A stretch of 24,000 nucleotides of DNA from Abiotrophia defectiva ATCC 49176. Its GTDB lineage: Bacteria > Bacillota > Bacilli > Lactobacillales > Aerococcaceae. The stretch spans positions 1,041,724 through 1,065,723 of the forward strand of contig NZ_KI535340.1 of the NCBI RefSeq assembly GCF_000160075.2, given 5' to 3'. Position 1 is the stretch's first letter, and each line of letters opens with the position of its first letter. Positions 3,001 through 18,000 of the stretch are shown here, in pieces. Position numbers: made by a program.

Positions 3001-6000
3001 ATGGGGAAGCGACCAGCCGTCTGGCCTTGACCTTGCTGGCCTTTATAGCTGGGAGCATTTTAAGCGGCCTCTTATTCTCTGATAAAGCCTTCCGCCTAGG
3101 CAACCGTTACGGTGTTTTGTTGATTAGCTTTGGCCTCTTATTGGGTTTAAGCTATGCCCTCAACTGGCAGGCTAGCTGGCTCTATCTCTTGGCCTTCGGT
3201 ATGGGGACCCAAAATGGTATGTTTATCTACTATCGTGGCATGATTGTCCGCAGTTCGCATTTTACGGGTTACCTGACTGATACGGGCTTTGCGCTAGGAC
3301 GTTACTTGCGGGGCTATAAGGAAGACGGCCACAAGATCATCTTCTACATGGCAAGCATTGCCTGCTTCCTAGTAGGAGGGCTCCTAACCTATATCTGGCT
3401 TAATCATTCTGCTATCAGCATGATTTTGGTCTTGGCTCTGGCCTATCTGGTGACGGGGACCTATTACTTTATCCTCCGCCACTGTCATCAAGCAGCCTAA
3501 GCAAAATCCCCTTATAGTATATAGGCTGTAAGGGGATTTTAGTTTGGTAAAAAAGAAGCTGAGACTTAGTCTCAGCTTTTTGCTTCTAGTTGAACTTTTT
3601 TCTGTGCCTTGGCCTTGACTAGGTAGATTAGGATTAGAATGGCCAGAACTTCGATGATCAGACAGTAGAGACCACCTTCTAGTCCAAAGTCGCCACCAGT
3701 CCAGAGCTTAGGGCTTTCTAGGCGGGTGCGCCAGATAGGAAAAGGCAGGCTCATGCCTGATACTTGGATACCCAGAACAGGCCCTTGCACAAAGTTCCAA
3801 GCTGAATGGGCCGCCCCCACAAACCAGATATTTTCCGTATAGGCGAAGAGGAGGGAGAAGGTCAGGCCGGCCAGGGTCAGGTTGACCAGAGCCAGGGATG
3901 AGACATTGGGATTACCCAAATGCATTGCGGCAAAAATCAGGGAGTTGGCCAGGACCGCTAGCCAGGTTGGAAAGCGTAGGGCCAGGCCATTCATGAGATA
4001 GCCCCGGCAGATGACTTCTTCGCTCAGCCCCTGAACCAGGAAGCCGGCTAGATAGAGTAGGGTCACTAAGACGGGCGTCTGACTAATGCGCTCTAGCGAT
4101 AAGTGGCCTAGCAAGGCGGGGATGATGAGGCAGGCCAGCAGTTGTAGCCCACCCAGGATAAAGCCCAATAGATAGGGGCCAATCAAGGGACGCTTGAAGC
4201 CCATAGACTCCCAGGACCGTCTGCCCAGGGTCCAACCGTAGAGGGCGAATCCCAAGAGGGGAATCAAGGTCGAAAAGAGGGCCAAGACGTTTAAGAGTGG
4301 GGCCACCAAGTCGGGGTGGGTCCAATTGAGGATTTGGAAGCGGGGGTGTGTGATGCCCCATAGGGTGGCCTTGGTCTGCCAGTCCTGAAGGTAGTGAAAC
4401 AAGAGGGGGAAGGCCAGCATGGAAAGCATCCAGCCCCAACCGGATGCTTGGCTTGATTTAGCTTTGATAAATGGCATTAAGCCACCTCCTTTTCTTCTAG
4501 TATAAGGCTCTTGGCAGGTCAAGGCAAATGTAAAAAATCAGCCAATCTCGGAATCAGTTCCATACTTTTCTTGATTTTTCGCCCATTTCCTAGGCTTAGG
4601 AAATAACTTTAGCGATTAGATGGCACATAAAATGTTATAATAGAATTGAGAGAAAGCGATGTCACAGCCTAGGAGGAGGGCGCTTATGCAGACACGACAG
4701 GAACAGCTCATGGTCATCCTGGCCCAGTCACAAGGCTGGCTCAAGGGACGGGACCTGGCGGCTTTGTTGGGCGTCTCCGACCGGACCATTCGCTCTGATA
4801 TGAACAAGTTAAAGCAAGACTATCCCGGGGCCATCCAGACCCATCACCACAAGGGTTATCGGCTAGTGGCCCAAGCCCTGGAAGATTCCAATCAGCCCAG
4901 TCCTCTGGGCCTGCCACAGAGTCAGGAAGAAAGGCTACATTATATACTCAAACTCCTATTGGCTGACAGTCAGCCTCAGACCCTCAAGGATCTGAGCCAA
5001 GACCTCTATGTCAGTCCCCAAACCCTAACCATGGACTTGCATCAAGTCGGTCAGTTGGTGGGGGCCTACCCGGATTTAGACCTAGAACATGATGTCAAGG
5101 GCTGGCAGCTTAAGGGCCCTGAATTCCAGAAACGTCGACTCTATCGGGAGCTCTTGACCTCGGAACTTCAGGGTGATTTCTTGAATCTGGATAAGGTCTT
5201 AGCCATATACGAAGAGTTTGACATGGTCTGGGTGGCCCACTATTTCCAAGGCCTACTCAAGCAGGCAGACTATCAGCTTCGGCCTGCCAGTTTACCCATC
5301 TTACTCCTGCACGTCGGGATTGCGGTTCAGCGTATGTTGGCCGGGCAATTTCTCTATCATCGTCAGGACCTACCGCCTCTGGTGCCTAAGGAAGAAGCCC
5401 TAGCTCGCAAGTTTTTGCAGGGGGTGGGTAAGCAATATAAGTGTCGGATTCCAGCCTCTGAAGCCTATAGTATTGGCCGTCTGCTGGAAGCTTATCAGGC
5501 CATGCATGATCTGGCCTCACAGGTCATCTATCAGGGCCGGCCCCTGGATTTGACCCGTTTGGTCCAAGACTTGGGCCAGCACCTACAAGACTTGGTGGGC
5601 TTGGATTTTCTTAGTGATGCCGACTTTAAGGATCGCTTCCATCTCCACCTTCAAGGGCTAATCGAACGCCTCCATTATCAGGTGGAGCTGCCCAATCTCT
5701 TCCTACAAGATATGAAACGCCAGTATCCCCTGGTCTTCGACCTGGCGGTAACGGTCAGTACCTGGTTGGGTGCCCGTCTAGGCGTGGTCTTATCCGAAGC
5801 CGAAATCGGGCTGATTGCCGTCCATATTGGTAGCTCCTATTCTCGCCTGGAGCGACCATGGAAGGCGCGAGCTATTTTGTTGGCGCCCCAACACTATCCC
5901 CTTATGCAATCTTCAATCGACCGGCTCAAGGCTAGCTTCGGCCACCGGCTGGAAATTCTAGCCCAATATGATTATGTCAGTGAAGCCCAGCTCCTGCATC

Positions 6001-15000: not shown

Positions 15001-18000
15001 CAGCCCGCGGGTGGTGGAAGACATTGCCATTCGCAATAAGGTGGCTGGCGTGGATATTCAACATATTGGCGACGCAGGCTTTGGCGGCTTGGCCAATGTG
15101 GAAAATATCTTCGCCTTATCAGTGGCCATAAGGGGCATGCGGCATACGGTGAGCCGTGTGGCCGGCTCCGCCATTCGTTAAGAAAGCAAAAGTAAACAAA
15201 GAAAGCCAGGTAGTTGAGCTACCTGGCTTGTTTTAGTCTGGGCTGACCACTGATTGGATAATGGTAAGGACCACTTGGCTGGCCTTTTCCATGCTTTCTA
15301 AGCTGACAAATTCATACTGGCCATGAAGGTTTTCAGCGCCCGTGAAGAGGTTGGGCGTCGGGATGCCCTTATAGGTGATGATGCAGCCGTCTGTCCCACC
15401 CCGGAAAGGCTTGATAAGAGGCTCAATGCCACAGGCCTTGTAGGCCGCAATAGCCACTTCAACCGGCGTCATGTCTTGCTTGAGGATATCGTACATATTG
15501 TAGTATTCGTCGTAAATTTGACATTGGATGCGGGGCCGGTCGTAGCCTGCGTTCTGTTGGGCCACAATCTGACGGAAGAAGTCCTTGCGGGCTTGGAAAC
15601 TTTCCTTGTCATGGTCACGAATAATGTAGGTGGCTTGAACTTGGCCAATGTTGCCGCTTTGACTGGACAGCATATAGTAGCCCTCGTGGCCCTCGGTTAA
15701 TTCTGGCACCTGGTCTTGGGGCAGGCGGGCGAAGAGTTTAGCGGCTTCGGCCAGAGCATTGACCATGAGGCCTTTGGCGGTCCCGGGATGGACACTGGTC
15801 CCGTCGATGGTCAGCATGACCCGGGCAGCATTGAAGGTCTCGTATTCCAACTTGCCCACCTCGCCACTATCTAAGGTATAGGCAAAGTCAGCTGGGAAGT
15901 CTTGGGCTTGGAAACGGTGGGCGCCTTTGCCGATTTCTTCATCAGGTCCGAAGGCTAGCCAAATATCGCCGTGAGGCAGGTCAGGATGGGCTAGCAGGTG
16001 GATGACTGCCTCCAGGATGCTGACCAGACCTGCCTTGTCGTCGGCCCCTAGCAGGGTGGTACCATCGGTGGTAATCAGGGTCTGTCCCACATAGTGCTTC
16101 AAGTTAGGAAATTCGGACACTCGCATGACAATGTCCAGGTCAGGGTTCAAGACAATATCCTGTCCGTCATAGTCCGCATGGACCTGGGGCTGGATATTTT
16201 CAGCATTAAAGTCGGCTGTATCCACATGGGCGATAAAGCCAATGGCTGGCGCCTTTTGATGGGCTGGTAGGTTGCTTGGCAAGAGGGCGGTGACAAAGGC
16301 GTCCACTGGATTGAAGCGCACTTGGCTGAGACCCAGGTCCTTGAGTTCGCCCTCCAACATGCGGAGGAAGTCCAGTTGACCGGGTGTGGTCGGCACGGCA
16401 TCCGAGTGCAGGTCGGACCGGGTGTTGATTTTAGCATAGCGGATAAAGCGTTGGAGCATAGATTCCATGGCGGAGCCTTCTTTCTCTTAATCAGTTAAGT
16501 CTAGTATAGCACTATGACGGGCCAGACCCAAGTTAGACCTTGTTGGCAAGGACGGGGATTTGTGATAGACTGGGGGCACAGTAAGGCGTGGTACAGAGGA
16601 GGAAGCCGTATGCAGATTAGACAGACAGAGAATGGGGACTTGCCGGCTTTGATGGCCTTATACCAACAAGCCCGGGCCTTTATGCGGGCCAAGGGTAATC
16701 CCAATCAGTGGCCAGACGGCTATCCGCCCCTAAGTCTCCTAGAAGCCGATATTGCTCAAGGCCATTCCTATGTCCTAGAGGACGAAACTAGCCAGCTAGT
16801 GGGCACCTTCGCTCTGATTGGCGGCCAAGATCCGACCTATGGCCAGATTGATGGTCTGGGCTGGCGCAGTACTAGTCCCTATGTGACCATTCACCGCCTG
16901 GCAGCCAATGGCAAGGCCCGGGGTGTGGCGCGGGCAGCTTTCGACTTCGCTAAGTCCTTCTGCCCCCACATCCGGATTGACACCCACGCCCAAAACCTGC
17001 CCATGCAGCAGGCCATCCTGGCCTACGGTTTCCAGGAGCGAGGTACTATCTATCTCCAAGACGGCTCACCCCGGCAGGCCTATGACTATCTAAGTGAATA
17101 AATGTGTGAGGGCTGGCACTGGGGTGCCGGCTCTTTTCTGATAGCTTGGGTCAGTTCATTGGTCCCGGCTTCTTTTTTGTTGTATAATAGCAAGGTTACG
17201 AAAGGAGAATGCGACATGTCACTCATTCGCAAATTAGGCTGGTTCTTCAAGTTGGAAGCCCGCCGTTATATGATTGGGATTCTGGCCTTATCCTTGGTCA
17301 GCGTCTTCAACCTGATTCCGCCGCGTATTATTGGGCAAGTCATTGATGCCATTGCAGGCGGCAATCTGACCCCTAGCGAGCTTGCCCTCAATCTGACCTG
17401 GCTAGTGGGAGCCTCTCTCATTATGTATGCCCTCCGCTATGTTTGGCGGCTCTTTATTTTAGGGACAGCCAATAGCCTGGGCCGGATTCTGCGGACTCGC
17501 TTGTTTGAGCACTTTACCCGCATGGCGCCGTCCTTCTATACCCGTTATCGGACCGGGGACCTGATGGCCCACGCCACCAACGATGTCCAAACCCTGGTCA
17601 TGACGGCAGGGGGCGGGGTCATGTCGGCCGTGGATGCTTCGATTACTGCCCTCGTTACCCTGGCTACCATGTTCTGGATTCTGGATTGGCGCCTGACCCT
17701 GGTGGCGATTTTGCCTCTGCCAGTACTGGCCTGGGGGACCAGTCGCCTGGGGCGCATCAACCATGAAGGCTTTAAGCAGGCCCAGGAGGCCTTCTCTGAG
17801 CTTAACAACTCAGTTCAGGAATCGGTCTCCGGTATTAAGGTGACCAAGTCCTTTGGTTATGGGGCCCAGGAGACGGCTAAGTTCCAGGCCACCAACCAGA
17901 TGGTCTGGGCAAAGAACCTGCGAGCTGCCAAGTACAATGAGCTCTTCCAACCCATGGTCTTGATTTTCGTGGGGGCCTCCTATCTGATTAGCTTGCTCTA

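What the first reader, a model, noticed from the sequence alone, without database searches (positions are those of the whole stretch)
4585..15236. 11-gene PTS-peptidase-glycosylasparaginase operon: candidate PTS-dependent pathway for Asn-linked glyco-amino acid/glycopeptide catabolism
Seen in the sequence:
- One extended -10 promoter (4633..4641) precedes a LicR/MtlR-type PRD regulator.
- Lactose/cellobiose-family EIIA, EIIB and EIIC follow, then seven soluble proteins.
- All eleven genes are on one strand. Gaps are at most 58 nt and there are two overlaps (10268/10278, and ATGA at 13537).
- The operon ends at a bidirectional terminator (15203..15236).
- It has no glycoside hydrolase, phospho-glycosidase, sugar kinase or isomerase. 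The only enzyme able to cleave a sugar linkage is the Ntn hydrolase at 11400..12362, whose motifs (HD-TVGMVALD, GDSPMIGSG, TATGLGEDLM, N-terminal ATW) look like glycosylasparaginase rather than plain asparaginase.

Established knowledge:
- Glycosylasparaginase needs a free alpha-amino and alpha-carboxyl group on the Asn. This would explain aminopeptidase (M42) and dipeptidase (PepV-like M20) partners.
- The Lac/Cel PTS family includes the diacetylchitobiose transporter.
- M42 genes embedded in PTS operons (E. coli frvX, sgcX, ypdE) have never been functionally explained.
- The one Lactobacillales glycoasparagine route I recall (Lacticaseibacillus casei alf-2, with a PepV and the glycosylasparaginase AsnA2) uses a non-PTS permease.

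Inference: the PTS imports and phosphorylates a GlcNAc-Asn-type compound or short glycopeptide. The peptidases trim the flanking residues. The Ntn hydrolase then releases Asp plus (phospho)GlcNAc-amine. The GrdB-like, CutC and 299-aa proteins have no assigned step, so part of the chemistry would be new.
Basis: partly seen in the sequence, partly recalled or inferred. Interest (0 to 1): 0.85.

Follow-up and report, generated by a model that had tools for sequence, protein, structure and literature searches.

The report
PTS operon for sugar-linked asparagine
This is an 11-gene operon of an oral Abiotrophia bacterium that most likely imports and breaks down GlcNAc-asparagine left over from host glycoproteins. 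The route was already shown in Enterococcus faecalis in 2023, but this version carries four extra conserved proteins whose jobs are unknown.

Summary
Eleven co-directional, tightly packed genes run from an extended -10 promoter (4633-4641) to a bidirectional terminator (15203-15229). They encode a PRD regulator, Lac/Cel EIIA/EIIB/EIIC, a GrdB-like protein, two M42 peptidases, an Ntn hydrolase, a Sapep/PepV-like M20 dipeptidase, CutC and DUF7916.

The Ntn hydrolase clusters with glycosylasparaginase (202 bits) and not with isoaspartyl peptidase (121 bits). Its catalytic residues are intact.

The gene set recurs in Abiotrophia, Granulicatella, Streptococcus cuniculi, Trichococcus, Erysipelotrichaceae, Oceanivirga, Latilactobacillus and Enterococcus, sometimes in a different order. 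EIIC and the glycosylasparaginase are in every GA-anchored locus. EIIB and the GrdB-like protein are each missing from only one or two loci.

The central inference is therefore well supported, but it is not new. The E. faecalis ega locus (Combret et al. 2023) is a published PTS route for GlcNAc-Asn with the same core.

What differs here:
- a PRD activator with a conserved palindrome (4586-4603) replaces the GntR repressor;
- the operon has its own EIIA;
- one M42 of the pair has lost its metal ligands;
- CutC is present, and it is also translationally coupled to the glycosylasparaginase in Hymenobacter;
- DUF7916 is present.

Verdict: a new variant of a known kind, of moderate interest.

The parts
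4586..4603 (.). Perfect palindrome TTTCCTA-GGCT-TAGGAAA. It is the candidate binding site of the PRD regulator, about 30 bp upstream of the -10.
   Evidence: It occurs once in the window, against 0 expected in shuffles. The same motif, with an N4 or N5 spacer, lies upstream of the regulator gene in Abiotrophia, Granulicatella, S. cuniculi and Erysipelotrichaceae loci.
4633..4641 (+). Extended -10 promoter element TGTTATAAT with no good -35, as expected for an activator-dependent promoter.
   Evidence: Read directly in the sequence. It is identical in L006.
4651..4664 (+). cre-like site AGAAAGCGATGTCA, one mismatch from WTGNAANCGNWNNCW. It is a possible CcpA site just downstream of the -10.
   Evidence: Pattern match only. 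It was seen only in the Abiotrophia loci, so this is weak evidence.
4686..6608 (+). LicR/MtlR-type PRD regulator (HTH_11/Mga, PRD, EIIA-2 domain). The upstream ATG at 4659 is an alternative start.
   Evidence: Pfam hits. SD AGGAGG lies at 4671-4676, and the L006 gene call is 640 aa.
6641..6961 (+). PTS EIIA, lactose/cellobiose family.
   Evidence: PF02255, 93 bits.
6978..7304 (+). PTS EIIB, lactose/cellobiose family, with the Cys loop CSAGMSTS.
   Evidence: PF02302. It is 75-81% identical to the Granulicatella and Streptococcus counterparts.
7340..8692 (+). PTS EIIC, lactose/cellobiose family. It is the predicted GlcNAc-Asn permease and the counterpart of EgaC.
   Evidence: PF02378 and TIGR00410, 388 bits. 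It is 46-54% identical to EIICs of ega-type loci, against 32-36% to EIICs not linked to a glycosylasparaginase.
8751..9257 (+). GrdB-related 168-aa protein without selenocysteine, the counterpart of EgaD. Function unknown.
   Evidence: NF041545, 233 bits. It follows EIIC directly in nearly all loci. The AF2 model has pLDDT 95 and a flavodoxin-like fold with no PDB neighbour.
9268..10278 (+). M42 paralogue without metal ligands (pseudo-peptidase), probably a structural subunit.
   Evidence: Changes are H->N, DD->AN and EE->QS, and the C-terminal His is absent. The loss is conserved in orthologues from three other lineages.
10268..11371 (+). Catalytically intact M42 (TET-type) aminopeptidase. 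It overlaps the previous gene by 11 nt.
   Evidence: PF05343, 268 bits. The best PDB hit is 1vhe at 1.9e-64, and all ligand motifs are present: HMDE, FDNR, QEEVG, VDT, RYMHTH.
11400..12362 (+). Cytoplasmic glycosylasparaginase, the counterpart of EgaG/AsnA2. The nucleophile is Thr151, numbered from the ATG at 11400.
   Evidence: The best PDB hits are Elizabethkingia glycosylasparaginase at 1.7e-58, against isoaspartyl peptidases at about 1e-34. HDTVG, the R/D/T/G substrate-binding residues and Trp11 are conserved. Homologues at 52-70% identity are named N(4)-(beta-N-acetylglucosaminyl)-L-asparaginase. There is no signal peptide.
12365..13540 (+). Sapep/PepV-type M20 dipeptidase with a shortened lid domain, the counterpart of EgaP/PepV.
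   Evidence: TIGR01887, 285 bits, above the cut-off of 208. About 100 lid residues of S. aureus Sapep have no counterpart here.
13537..14280 (+). CutC-family TIM-barrel protein. Its start overlaps the M20 stop (ATGA).
   Evidence: PF03932, 171 bits, with PDB CutC hits. It is linked to the glycosylasparaginase in Granulicatella, Trichococcus, Erysipelotrichaceae and L040, and by a 4-nt overlap in two Hymenobacter records.
14282..15181 (+). DUF7916 TIM-barrel protein. Function unknown.
   Evidence: PF25509, 405 bits. The AF2 model has pLDDT 93 and matches only generic barrels at TM about 0.5.
15203..15229 (.). Bidirectional intrinsic terminator, shared with the convergent pepT.
   Evidence: A 12-pair stem with T-runs on both strands.

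Best explanation
This is a PTS-dependent operon for using GlcNAc-beta-asparagine, and possibly very short Asn-glycopeptides, released when host N-glycoproteins are degraded. It belongs to an uncultured Abiotrophia species.

Proposed mechanism:
1. EIIA/EIIB/EIIC import the glyco-amino acid. Like other Lac/Cel-family systems, they should phosphorylate the sugar at O-6 (inferred).
2. The cytoplasmic glycosylasparaginase cleaves the amide bond, giving L-aspartate and 1-amino-GlcNAc(-6-P).
3. That product decays or is converted to GlcNAc-6-P plus ammonium, which feeds NagA/NagB (inferred).
4. The intact M42 aminopeptidase, together with its ligand-less paralogue, and the short-lid Sapep dipeptidase would free the alpha-amino and alpha-carboxyl groups of Asn that the glycosylasparaginase requires (inferred).
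5. The PRD regulator, bound at the palindrome 4586-4603, activates the -35-less promoter when substrate flux dephosphorylates the PTS (inferred from the domain set).

The system is an elaborated version of the E. faecalis ega locus. GrdB-like, CutC and DUF7916 are conserved accessory proteins with no assigned step.
For: - Domain assignments for all 11 genes.
- Glycosylasparaginase rather than asparaginase: 202 against 121 bits, with catalytic and Asn-binding residues conserved.
- A subfamily-wide N-terminus MWGxIATWRM, shared with the enzymes of ega-type Enterococcus and Latilactobacillus loci.
- Conserved synteny in Abiotrophia, Granulicatella and S. cuniculi, and in Erysipelotrichaceae, Trichococcus and Oceanivirga.
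- The same genes in a different order in L040, L039, L041 and L043.
- Published E. faecalis work: a GlcNAc-L-Asn PTS that uses EIIB/EIIC of the ega locus, with EgaG, a dipeptidase and a GrdB-type 'oxidoreductase' in that locus.
- nagA (TIGR00221, 308 bits) lies directly upstream of the regulator in Erysipelotrichaceae.
- The palindrome upstream of the regulator is conserved in four families.
- Tight spacing, one terminator and no convincing internal signals.
Against: - No experiment exists for this organism, and the substrate is inferred by homology only. EIIC is 46-54% identical to EIICs of ega-type loci. I could not retrieve the E. faecalis sequences themselves or read the primary ega paper.
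- Position 13 of the sugar-stacking pair is Met, not Phe.
- In L. casei the linked PepV was not needed for 6'FN-Asn.
- The GrdB-like gene is a pseudogene in E. faecalis OG1RF. The accessory genes are therefore not required for the basic route and may serve another substrate.
- M42, CutC and DUF7916 are each absent from some loci.
Confidence: 0.72

Rival explanations
1. The true substrates are larger or different Asn-linked glycoconjugates, for example chitobiosyl-Asn, core-fucosyl-GlcNAc-Asn or Asn-glycopeptides. The unassigned TIM barrels (DUF7916, CutC) and the GrdB-like protein would then supply missing sugar-processing chemistry, such as a new phospho-beta-N-acetylglucosaminidase or a glycosylamine-processing enzyme. 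On this view GlcNAc-Asn is only the last intermediate.
For: - Lac/Cel EIICs usually carry disaccharide-sized substrates.
- The accessory genes are conserved and translationally coupled.
- DUF7916 also sits beside Lac/Cel EIICs with no other catabolic enzyme in the operon.
- Its nearest folds are largely phosphate-binding barrels.
- CutC is coupled to the glycosylasparaginase next to GH92 and GH2 genes in Hymenobacter.
- A GH29 fucosidase lies 3.5 kb upstream in one Granulicatella-type contig.
Against: - No recognisable glycosidase domain or catalytic motif was found.
- DUF7916 also occurs with ThrE and amino-acid permease genes and no PTS.
- Minimal ega-type loci lacking all three proteins exist.
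- The profile hit to GH3 NagZ is not significant (E = 0.016).
Confidence: 0.18
2. The operon handles beta-aspartyl (isoaspartyl) peptides or another non-glycan aspartyl conjugate. The Ntn hydrolase would act as an isoaspartyl peptidase alongside the M42 and M20 peptidases, and the PTS would be an unrelated beta-glucoside system that merely shares the transcript.
For: - PF01112 includes isoaspartyl peptidases, and NF007589 gives a weak hit (116 bits, cut-off 567).
- Three peptidase genes surround the hydrolase.
Against: - The hydrolase scores far higher to solved glycosylasparaginases and keeps the sugar-stacking Trp.
- EIIC and the hydrolase co-occur in every GA-anchored locus despite changes of gene order.
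- The E. faecalis homologues are needed for GlcNAc-Asn use.
Confidence: 0.05
3. The eleven genes are not one functional unit. The downstream soluble genes would be transcribed from internal promoters and serve general peptide turnover, like the neighbouring pepT.
For: - Weak promoter-like matches occur on the + strand at 8690-8718, 9121-9148 and 10994-11023.
- EIIB and EIIC have a lower G+C (0.47-0.48) than the other genes.
Against: - Those matches score 9 of 12. The total count (14, against 8.0 +/- 2.9 in shuffles) is only modestly above chance.
- There are two gene overlaps and gaps of 1-2 nt.
- There is no internal terminator of any strength.
- The set is conserved across phyla.
Confidence: 0.05

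Closest known systems
Enterococcus faecalis ega (enterococcal glycosylasparaginase) locus, egaRP / egaGBCD (Combret et al. 2023, Res Microbiol 175:104169; described in PMC11549559 and PMC11976118)
   Same: Both have a cytoplasmic glycosylasparaginase, Lac/Cel-family EIIB and EIIC, a Sapep/PepV-type dipeptidase and a GrdB-related 'oxidoreductase'. The published function is PTS uptake and catabolism of GlcNAc-L-Asn. Annotated ega-type loci retrieved here give 52-60% identity for the glycosylasparaginase, 46-54% for EIIC, about 41% for the GrdB-like protein and 35-45% for M20 (E. gilvus, L. curvatus and an Enterococcus-like scaffold).
   Different: Here a PRD/EIIA-domain activator with its own palindrome replaces the GntR repressor EgaR. 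A dedicated EIIA is encoded, whereas E. faecalis borrows CelA1. All genes form a single operon. The window adds an M42 pair (one member inactive), CutC and DUF7916, and its M20 has a shortened lid. I could not read the primary paper or fetch the E. faecalis sequences.
Lacticaseibacillus casei alf-2 cluster (Becerra et al. 2020, PMC6960285)
   Same: It has a glycosylasparaginase (AsnA2) genetically linked to a PepV-type M20 peptidase, and it catabolises an Asn-linked core N-glycan fragment to Asp plus 1-amino-GlcNAc.
   Different: alf-2 uses an MFS permease (AlfH), an alpha-L-fucosidase (AlfC), a sugar kinase (SugK) and AsdA. It has no PTS, M42, CutC, GrdB-like protein or DUF7916. None of the alf-2-specific genes is in the window.
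Elizabethkingia (Flavobacterium) meningoseptica and human glycosylasparaginase (PDB 1AYY, 2GAW, 1APY)
   Same: Same fold and same catalytic apparatus: HDT autoprocessing site, Thr nucleophile and Arg/Asp/Thr/Gly Asn-binding residues (1.7e-58).
   Different: Those enzymes are secreted or lysosomal and carry STWNF/NTWPF. The Firmicutes subfamily is cytoplasmic, begins MWGxIATWRM and is embedded in PTS operons.
E. coli PTS operons containing M42 peptidases (sgcX, frvX, ypdE)
   Same: An M42 peptidase gene sits inside a PTS operon. M42b is 28% identical to SgcX. The sgc operon also holds a TIM barrel of unknown function (SgcQ).
   Different: The PTS families differ, and those operons have no glycosylasparaginase. 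DUF7916 shows no profile similarity to SgcQ. The E. coli systems have no known substrate.

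Membership tests
Glycosylasparaginase (EC 3.5.1.26, Ntn hydrolase, PF01112) | An Asparaginase_2 domain that is closer to solved glycosylasparaginases than to isoaspartyl peptidase or plant-type asparaginase. 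| tested here: met
   PF01112, 215 bits. Elizabethkingia glycosylasparaginase scores 1.7e-58 (202 bits), against the best isoaspartyl peptidase at about 5e-34 (121 bits).
Glycosylasparaginase (EC 3.5.1.26, Ntn hydrolase, PF01112) | His-Asp-Thr autoprocessing site with a Thr nucleophile, plus equivalents of Thr170, Arg180, Asp183 and Thr203/Gly204 that bind the free alpha-amino and alpha-carboxyl groups of Asn. | tested here: met
   HDTVG is present. T+18, R+28, D+31 and T/G+51/52, counted from the nucleophile, are all conserved in the alignment. HDTVG is found in 119 of 120 homologues.
Glycosylasparaginase (EC 3.5.1.26, Ntn hydrolase, PF01112) | The sugar-stacking aromatic pair Trp11/Phe13. 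| tested here: inconclusive
   Trp11 is conserved, but position 13 is Met. The motif is ATWRM or ATWQM in 118 of 120 homologues, including those from ega-type loci.
Glycosylasparaginase (EC 3.5.1.26, Ntn hydrolase, PF01112) | Hydrolysis of GlcNAc-Asn. | not testable with these tools
   This needs an enzyme assay.
ega-type PTS GlcNAc-Asn utilisation locus | A glycosylasparaginase adjacent to Lac/Cel-family EIIB and EIIC. | tested here: met
   The same adjacency is seen in E. gilvus and in L039. In L. curvatus and L040 the glycosylasparaginase is adjacent to EIIC, with no EIIB found.
ega-type PTS GlcNAc-Asn utilisation locus | A linked Sapep/PepV-type dipeptidase (EgaP) and a GrdB-related protein (EgaD). 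| tested here: met
   TIGR01887, 285 bits, and NF041545, 233 bits.
ega-type PTS GlcNAc-Asn utilisation locus | The GntR-family repressor EgaR controlling two promoters. | tested here: not met
   The regulator here is HTH_11/Mga-PRD-EIIA2. No GntR gene is present in the window.
ega-type PTS GlcNAc-Asn utilisation locus | Growth on GlcNAc-L-Asn, and induction by it, dependent on the locus. | not testable with these tools
   This needs culture and genetics.
LicR/MtlR-type PRD-containing transcriptional activators | An N-terminal HTH/Mga DNA-binding region, PRD domains and a C-terminal EIIA(Mtl/Fru)-like domain. | tested here: met
   HTH_11 at 13-68, Mga at 91-165, PRD at 307-392 and PTS_EIIA_2 at 506-640. 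Only one PRD and no EIIB-like domain reached threshold.
M42 (TET) aminopeptidases | A complete set of dinuclear metal ligands and the catalytic Glu (H, D, EE, D, H). | tested here: met
   This row is for the second M42 (10268-11371). HMDE, FDNR, QEEVG, VDT and RYMHTH are all present.
M42 (TET) aminopeptidases | The same ligand set in the first M42 (9268-10278). | tested here: not met
   The changes are TNLDE, LANR and SQSLVG, and the C-terminal His is missing. The loss is shared by orthologues in S. cuniculi, Erysipelotrichaceae and, partly, L040.
Glycine/sarcosine/betaine reductase selenoprotein B (GrdB) | A full-length protein of about 430 aa with the selenocysteine-containing catalytic region. 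| tested here: not met
   The protein is 168 aa and matches only profile positions 2-153 of 347. It is assigned to the no-selenium family NF041545. Full-length short relatives are 170-177 aa.
L. casei alf-2 type 6'-fucosyl-GlcNAc-Asn pathway | The AlfH MFS permease, the AlfC GH29 fucosidase and the SugK ROK kinase. | tested here: not met
   None of these domains is present in the operon or elsewhere in the window.

The most novel reading that the evidence does not exclude
The conserved accessory proteins encode undescribed steps of glyco-amino-acid catabolism.

CutC is the main candidate. Its protein function is unknown, because the E. coli copper phenotype is due to the MicL sRNA inside the cutC gene (PMC4102768). 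It may be an enzyme of the glycosylasparaginase pathway, for example one that processes the glycosylamine product 1-amino-GlcNAc(-6P), since it is translationally coupled to the glycosylasparaginase in Firmicutes and in Hymenobacter.

The active/inactive M42 pair may form a hetero-oligomeric TET peptidase specialised for Asn-glycopeptides. That would give the first functional rationale for M42 genes in PTS operons.
Probability: 0.2. Interest if true: 0.7.

Novelty: new variant of a known kind. Interest (0 to 1): 0.45.

Why it matters
Abiotrophia and Granulicatella are oral commensals that cause endocarditis. In E. faecalis the homologous locus contributes to infection. A dedicated route for scavenging GlcNAc-Asn from host glycoproteins is therefore plausibly relevant to how these bacteria persist on host tissue.

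The basic pathway is already known, so the value lies in the extras. The operon places four proteins of unknown function in a defined biochemical setting with an obvious substrate to test: CutC, the GrdB-like protein, DUF7916 and a pseudo-M42. It also offers a concrete hypothesis for why M42 peptidases sit in PTS operons.

Tried and rejected
- Primary ega paper: pmid 37977353 is not held. Details were taken from papers that cite it.
It returned only Abiotrophia, Granulicatella and Streptococcus loci. I substituted ega-type loci from an Enterococcus-like scaffold, the E. gilvus megaplasmid and L. curvatus.
- GrdB-like function: the model was confident, but no PDB match had E < 1e-3.
- An idea that the Arg in ATWRM adapts the enzyme to a 6-phosphate: dropped. 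The L. curvatus enzyme, which is the type related to L. casei AsnA2, also carries TWRM.
- Rfam and tRNA scans of the window found nothing.
- Literature searches for DUF7916, for CutC with glycosylasparaginase or GlcNAc, and for M42 in PTS operons found no functional study.

Full report
**1. Observation**

The window holds eleven consecutive + strand ORFs between 4659 and 15181.
- an HTH_11/Mga-PRD-EIIA2 regulator;
- Lac/Cel-family EIIA, EIIB and EIIC;
- a 168-aa GrdB-related protein (NF041545, 233 bits, above the cut-off of 175);
- two M42 peptidases;
- an Asparaginase_2 Ntn hydrolase;
- a Sapep/PepV-type M20 dipeptidase;
- CutC;
- a 299-aa protein that is a full-length DUF7916 (PF25509, 405 bits).

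Successive gaps are 32, 16, 35, 58, 10, -11, 28, 2, -4 and 1 nt. TGTTATAAT lies at 4633-4641. A 12-pair hairpin at 15203-15229 has T-runs on both strands and is shared with a convergent pepT. No glycosidase, kinase or isomerase domain is present.

Two corrections:
- The regulator probably starts at ATG 4686, behind AGGAGG at 4671-4676.
All homologues begin MWGxIATW.

**2. Organism**

The GrdB-like protein is 100% identical to that of an uncultured Abiotrophia sp. MAG and 97% identical to that of an A. defectiva MAG. The window is therefore from Abiotrophia (Aerococcaceae, Lactobacillales), an oral commensal and endocarditis agent.

**3. The hydrolase**

Against all PDB sequences, the best matches are the Elizabethkingia glycosylasparaginases (1.7e-58, 202 bits). 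Isoaspartyl peptidases and plant-type asparaginases score about 1e-34 (121 bits), and Taspase scores lower still.

The HDT autoprocessing site is conserved. So are the Thr nucleophile and the equivalents of Thr170, Arg180, Asp183 and Thr203/Gly204, which hold the free alpha-amino and alpha-carboxyl groups of Asn. Trp11 is conserved too, but Phe13 is Met. There is no signal peptide.

Homologues at 52-70% identity are named N(4)-(beta-N-acetylglucosaminyl)-L-asparaginase by NCBI.

**4. Conservation of the gene set**

| Lineage or locus | Gene order |
|---|---|
| Abiotrophia | the identical 11 genes |
| Granulicatella and related MAGs | regulator-EIIA-EIIB-EIIC-GrdB-like-GA-M20-CutC-DUF7916, no M42 |
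| Streptococcus cuniculi | regulator-(EIIA remnant)-EIIB-EIIC-GrdB-like-M42-M42-GA-M20-DUF7916, no CutC |
| Erysipelotrichaceae | regulator-RDD-EIIA-RDD-EIIB-EIIC-GrdB-like-M42-M42-GA-M20-CutC, with nagA directly upstream |
| Trichococcus | regulator-EIIA-EIIB-EIIC-GrdB-like-GA-M20-CutC |
| Oceanivirga (Fusobacteriota) | EIIB-EIIC-GrdB-like-unknown ORF-GA-DUF7916 |
| Metagenome contig L040 | GA-M20-CutC-YitT-EIIC-GrdB-like-M42-M42 |

GA is the glycosylasparaginase. Co-occurrence that survives changes of gene order is strong evidence of functional linkage. EIIC and the glycosylasparaginase are present in every GA-anchored locus. EIIB is missing only from L040 and L. curvatus, and the GrdB-like protein only from E. 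gilvus. M20 is nearly invariant. The M42 pair, CutC and DUF7916 are accessory.

**5. The route is already known**

Full-text search shows that Combret et al. (Res Microbiol 2023/2024, 175:104169) described the E. faecalis 'ega' locus. It comprises:
- a GntR regulator and a dipeptidase in one transcription unit;
- the glycosylasparaginase EgaG;
- Lac/Cel EIIB and EIIC;
- a putative GrdB-type oxidoreductase, which is a pseudogene in OG1RF.

GlcNAc-L-Asn is taken up by this PTS, with CelA1 serving as EIIA. I could not read the primary paper or fetch E. faecalis DNA. I did retrieve three ega-type loci:
- An Enterococcus-like 3.1-Mb scaffold: GntR-M20-GA-(EIIB)-EIIC-GrdB-like-M42-M42.
- E. gilvus pCR1A: GntR 'LSA1692 subfamily'-Sapep-GA-EIIB-EIIC-EIIA.
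- L. curvatus: GA-GntR-GrdB-like-EIIC-Sapep.

Identities of the window proteins to these loci:

| Protein | Identity |
|---|---|
| Glycosylasparaginase | 52-60% |
| EIIC | 46-54% |
| GrdB-like | about 41% |
| M20 | 35-45% |

EIICs not linked to a glycosylasparaginase are only 32-36% identical. All these glycosylasparaginases share the (A/G)TWRMA N-terminus.

**6. What differs from ega**

(a) Regulation. A PRD/EIIA-domain activator replaces the GntR repressor. A perfect palindrome, TTTCCTA-N4-TAGGAAA, lies at 4586-4603, about 30 bp upstream of a -10 that has no -35. It occurs once in the window, against 0 expected. It recurs at the same place in Abiotrophia, Granulicatella, S. cuniculi and Erysipelotrichaceae loci. 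This is the probable operator. A cre-like site at 4651-4664 is weak evidence for CcpA control.

(b) EIIA. The operon encodes its own EIIA.

(c) The M42 pair.
- The second M42 has all metal ligands and is most similar to B. subtilis YsdC-type TET peptidases.
- The first has lost them (H->N, DD->AN, EE->QS, no C-terminal His). The same degeneration is seen in its orthologues in other lineages.
- An active/inactive hetero-oligomer is the natural reading (inference).

(d) M20. It lacks about 100 residues of the Sapep lid.

(e) CutC.
- It is coupled by ATGA to M20 here.
- It follows the glycosylasparaginase with a 4-nt overlap in two Hymenobacter plasmid records, next to GH92 and GH2 genes.
- In Hymenobacter the glycosylasparaginase has a Tat-like signal, while CutC has none.
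- The E. coli cutC copper phenotype is attributed to the MicL sRNA inside the gene (PMC4102768). The protein therefore has no established function.

(f) DUF7916.
- AlphaFold gives a confident (beta/alpha)8 barrel (pLDDT 93).
- Its PDB neighbours are only generic, largely phosphate-binding barrels at TM about 0.5.
- It is unrelated at profile level to CutC or to E. coli SgcQ.
- It also sits beside Lac/Cel EIICs that lack a glycosylasparaginase, and between ThrE and amino-acid permease genes.
- Its role is therefore not specific to the glycosylasparaginase.

(g) The GrdB-like protein. It is a confident flavodoxin-like alpha/beta domain with invariant Cys54 and Cys87 and a MPKKGG motif. It has no structural neighbour in the PDB. 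It belongs to a small family of roughly 20 full-length clusters at 50% identity.

**7. Mechanism**

| Status | Point |
|---|---|
| Shown | Gene content, conservation, enzyme class. |
| By homology to ega | The PTS imports GlcNAc-Asn, and the cytoplasmic glycosylasparaginase splits it into Asp and a glycosylamine. |
| Inferred | Phosphorylation at O-6 by the Lac/Cel PTS, with GlcNAc-6-P as the end product. The nagA gene adjacent in Erysipelotrichaceae supports this. |
| Inferred | N-terminal trimming by M42 and C-terminal trimming by M20. |
| Inferred | Activation by the PRD regulator at the palindrome. |

PepV was dispensable in L. casei, and the GrdB-like gene is broken in OG1RF. The accessory proteins are therefore not needed for the minimal route.

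**8. Verdict**

This is a new variant of a known kind.

Interest is moderate. The pathway itself is published. However, the operon gives CutC, the GrdB-like family, DUF7916 and M42-in-PTS a testable biochemical setting.

Noticed in passing
window 9268-10278; L001 7880-8887; L033 6872-7930; L040 5844-6905: The first M42 of each pair is a conserved pseudo-peptidase without metal ligands. It always lies directly upstream of an intact M42, which suggests a hetero-oligomeric TET complex.
   Followed up: yes
L042 6878-8631 (Hymenobacter volaticus plasmid NZ_CP095062.1); L045 3884-5664 (Hymenobacter sp. DG25B NZ_CP010056.1): The glycosylasparaginase and CutC overlap by 4 nt next to GH92/GH2/ROK genes in Bacteroidota. 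The glycosylasparaginase carries a Tat-like signal and CutC has none. This is an independent link between CutC and N-glycan core catabolism.
   Followed up: partly
L037 7511-10744; L051 6502-9744; L038 7663-9906; L049 6760-10269: DUF7916 occurs outside glycosylasparaginase clusters. It appears as EIIC-DUF7916-EIIB-EIIA with a divergent ROK/MarR regulator (Pradoshia, Bacillus), as EIIC-DUF7916 (Vagococcus), and as ThrE-ThrE-DUF7916-amino-acid permease.
   Followed up: partly
window 6978-8692: EIIB and EIIC have a lower G+C (0.47-0.48; GC3 0.57) than the other operon genes (0.53-0.58). They are also the proteins best conserved with low-GC Granulicatella and Streptococcus (72-81% identity). This may reflect membrane-protein composition or lateral exchange of the transporter module.
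   Followed up: no
window 8615-8692: EIIC ends in a highly acidic tail of about 25 residues (EEEKPVQDLKDDLDDISLDDLSFDDL). Alignments to homologues from other genera stop before it, at about residue 428-431.
   Followed up: no
window 15233-16468 (-): A convergent pepT (tripeptidase; NF003976, 548 bits) shares the terminator. It is adjacent to the cluster only in the Abiotrophia loci, so the placement is probably coincidental.
   Followed up: partly
L033 1-1049; L004 648-1970: nagA (GlcNAc-6-P deacetylase) lies directly upstream of the regulator in Erysipelotrichaceae. A GH29 alpha-L-fucosidase lies 3.5 kb upstream in one Granulicatella-type contig and is absent from its sister contig L003.
   Followed up: partly
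L033 3153-4530 and 11854-12729; L040 2986-3846: In Erysipelotrichaceae two RDD-domain membrane proteins flank EIIA. A YitT/DUF2179 membrane protein follows CutC, in the place DUF7916 takes elsewhere.
   Followed up: no
window 12365-13540: The M20 dipeptidase lacks about 100 residues of the Sapep/PepV lid domain. Cluster members are 354-395 aa, against 433-470 aa for ega-type and canonical enzymes.
   Followed up: partly
window 1254-4522 and 16514-23461: Flanking genes appear unrelated to the operon: an ABC-F protein, DUF1275, a CPBP/Rce1-like intramembrane protease (- strand), a GNAT, a pair of half-size ABC exporters, an AlkZ-like DNA glycosylase and an EEP-family nuclease/phosphatase. No tRNA or Rfam family was found in the window.
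   Followed up: partly
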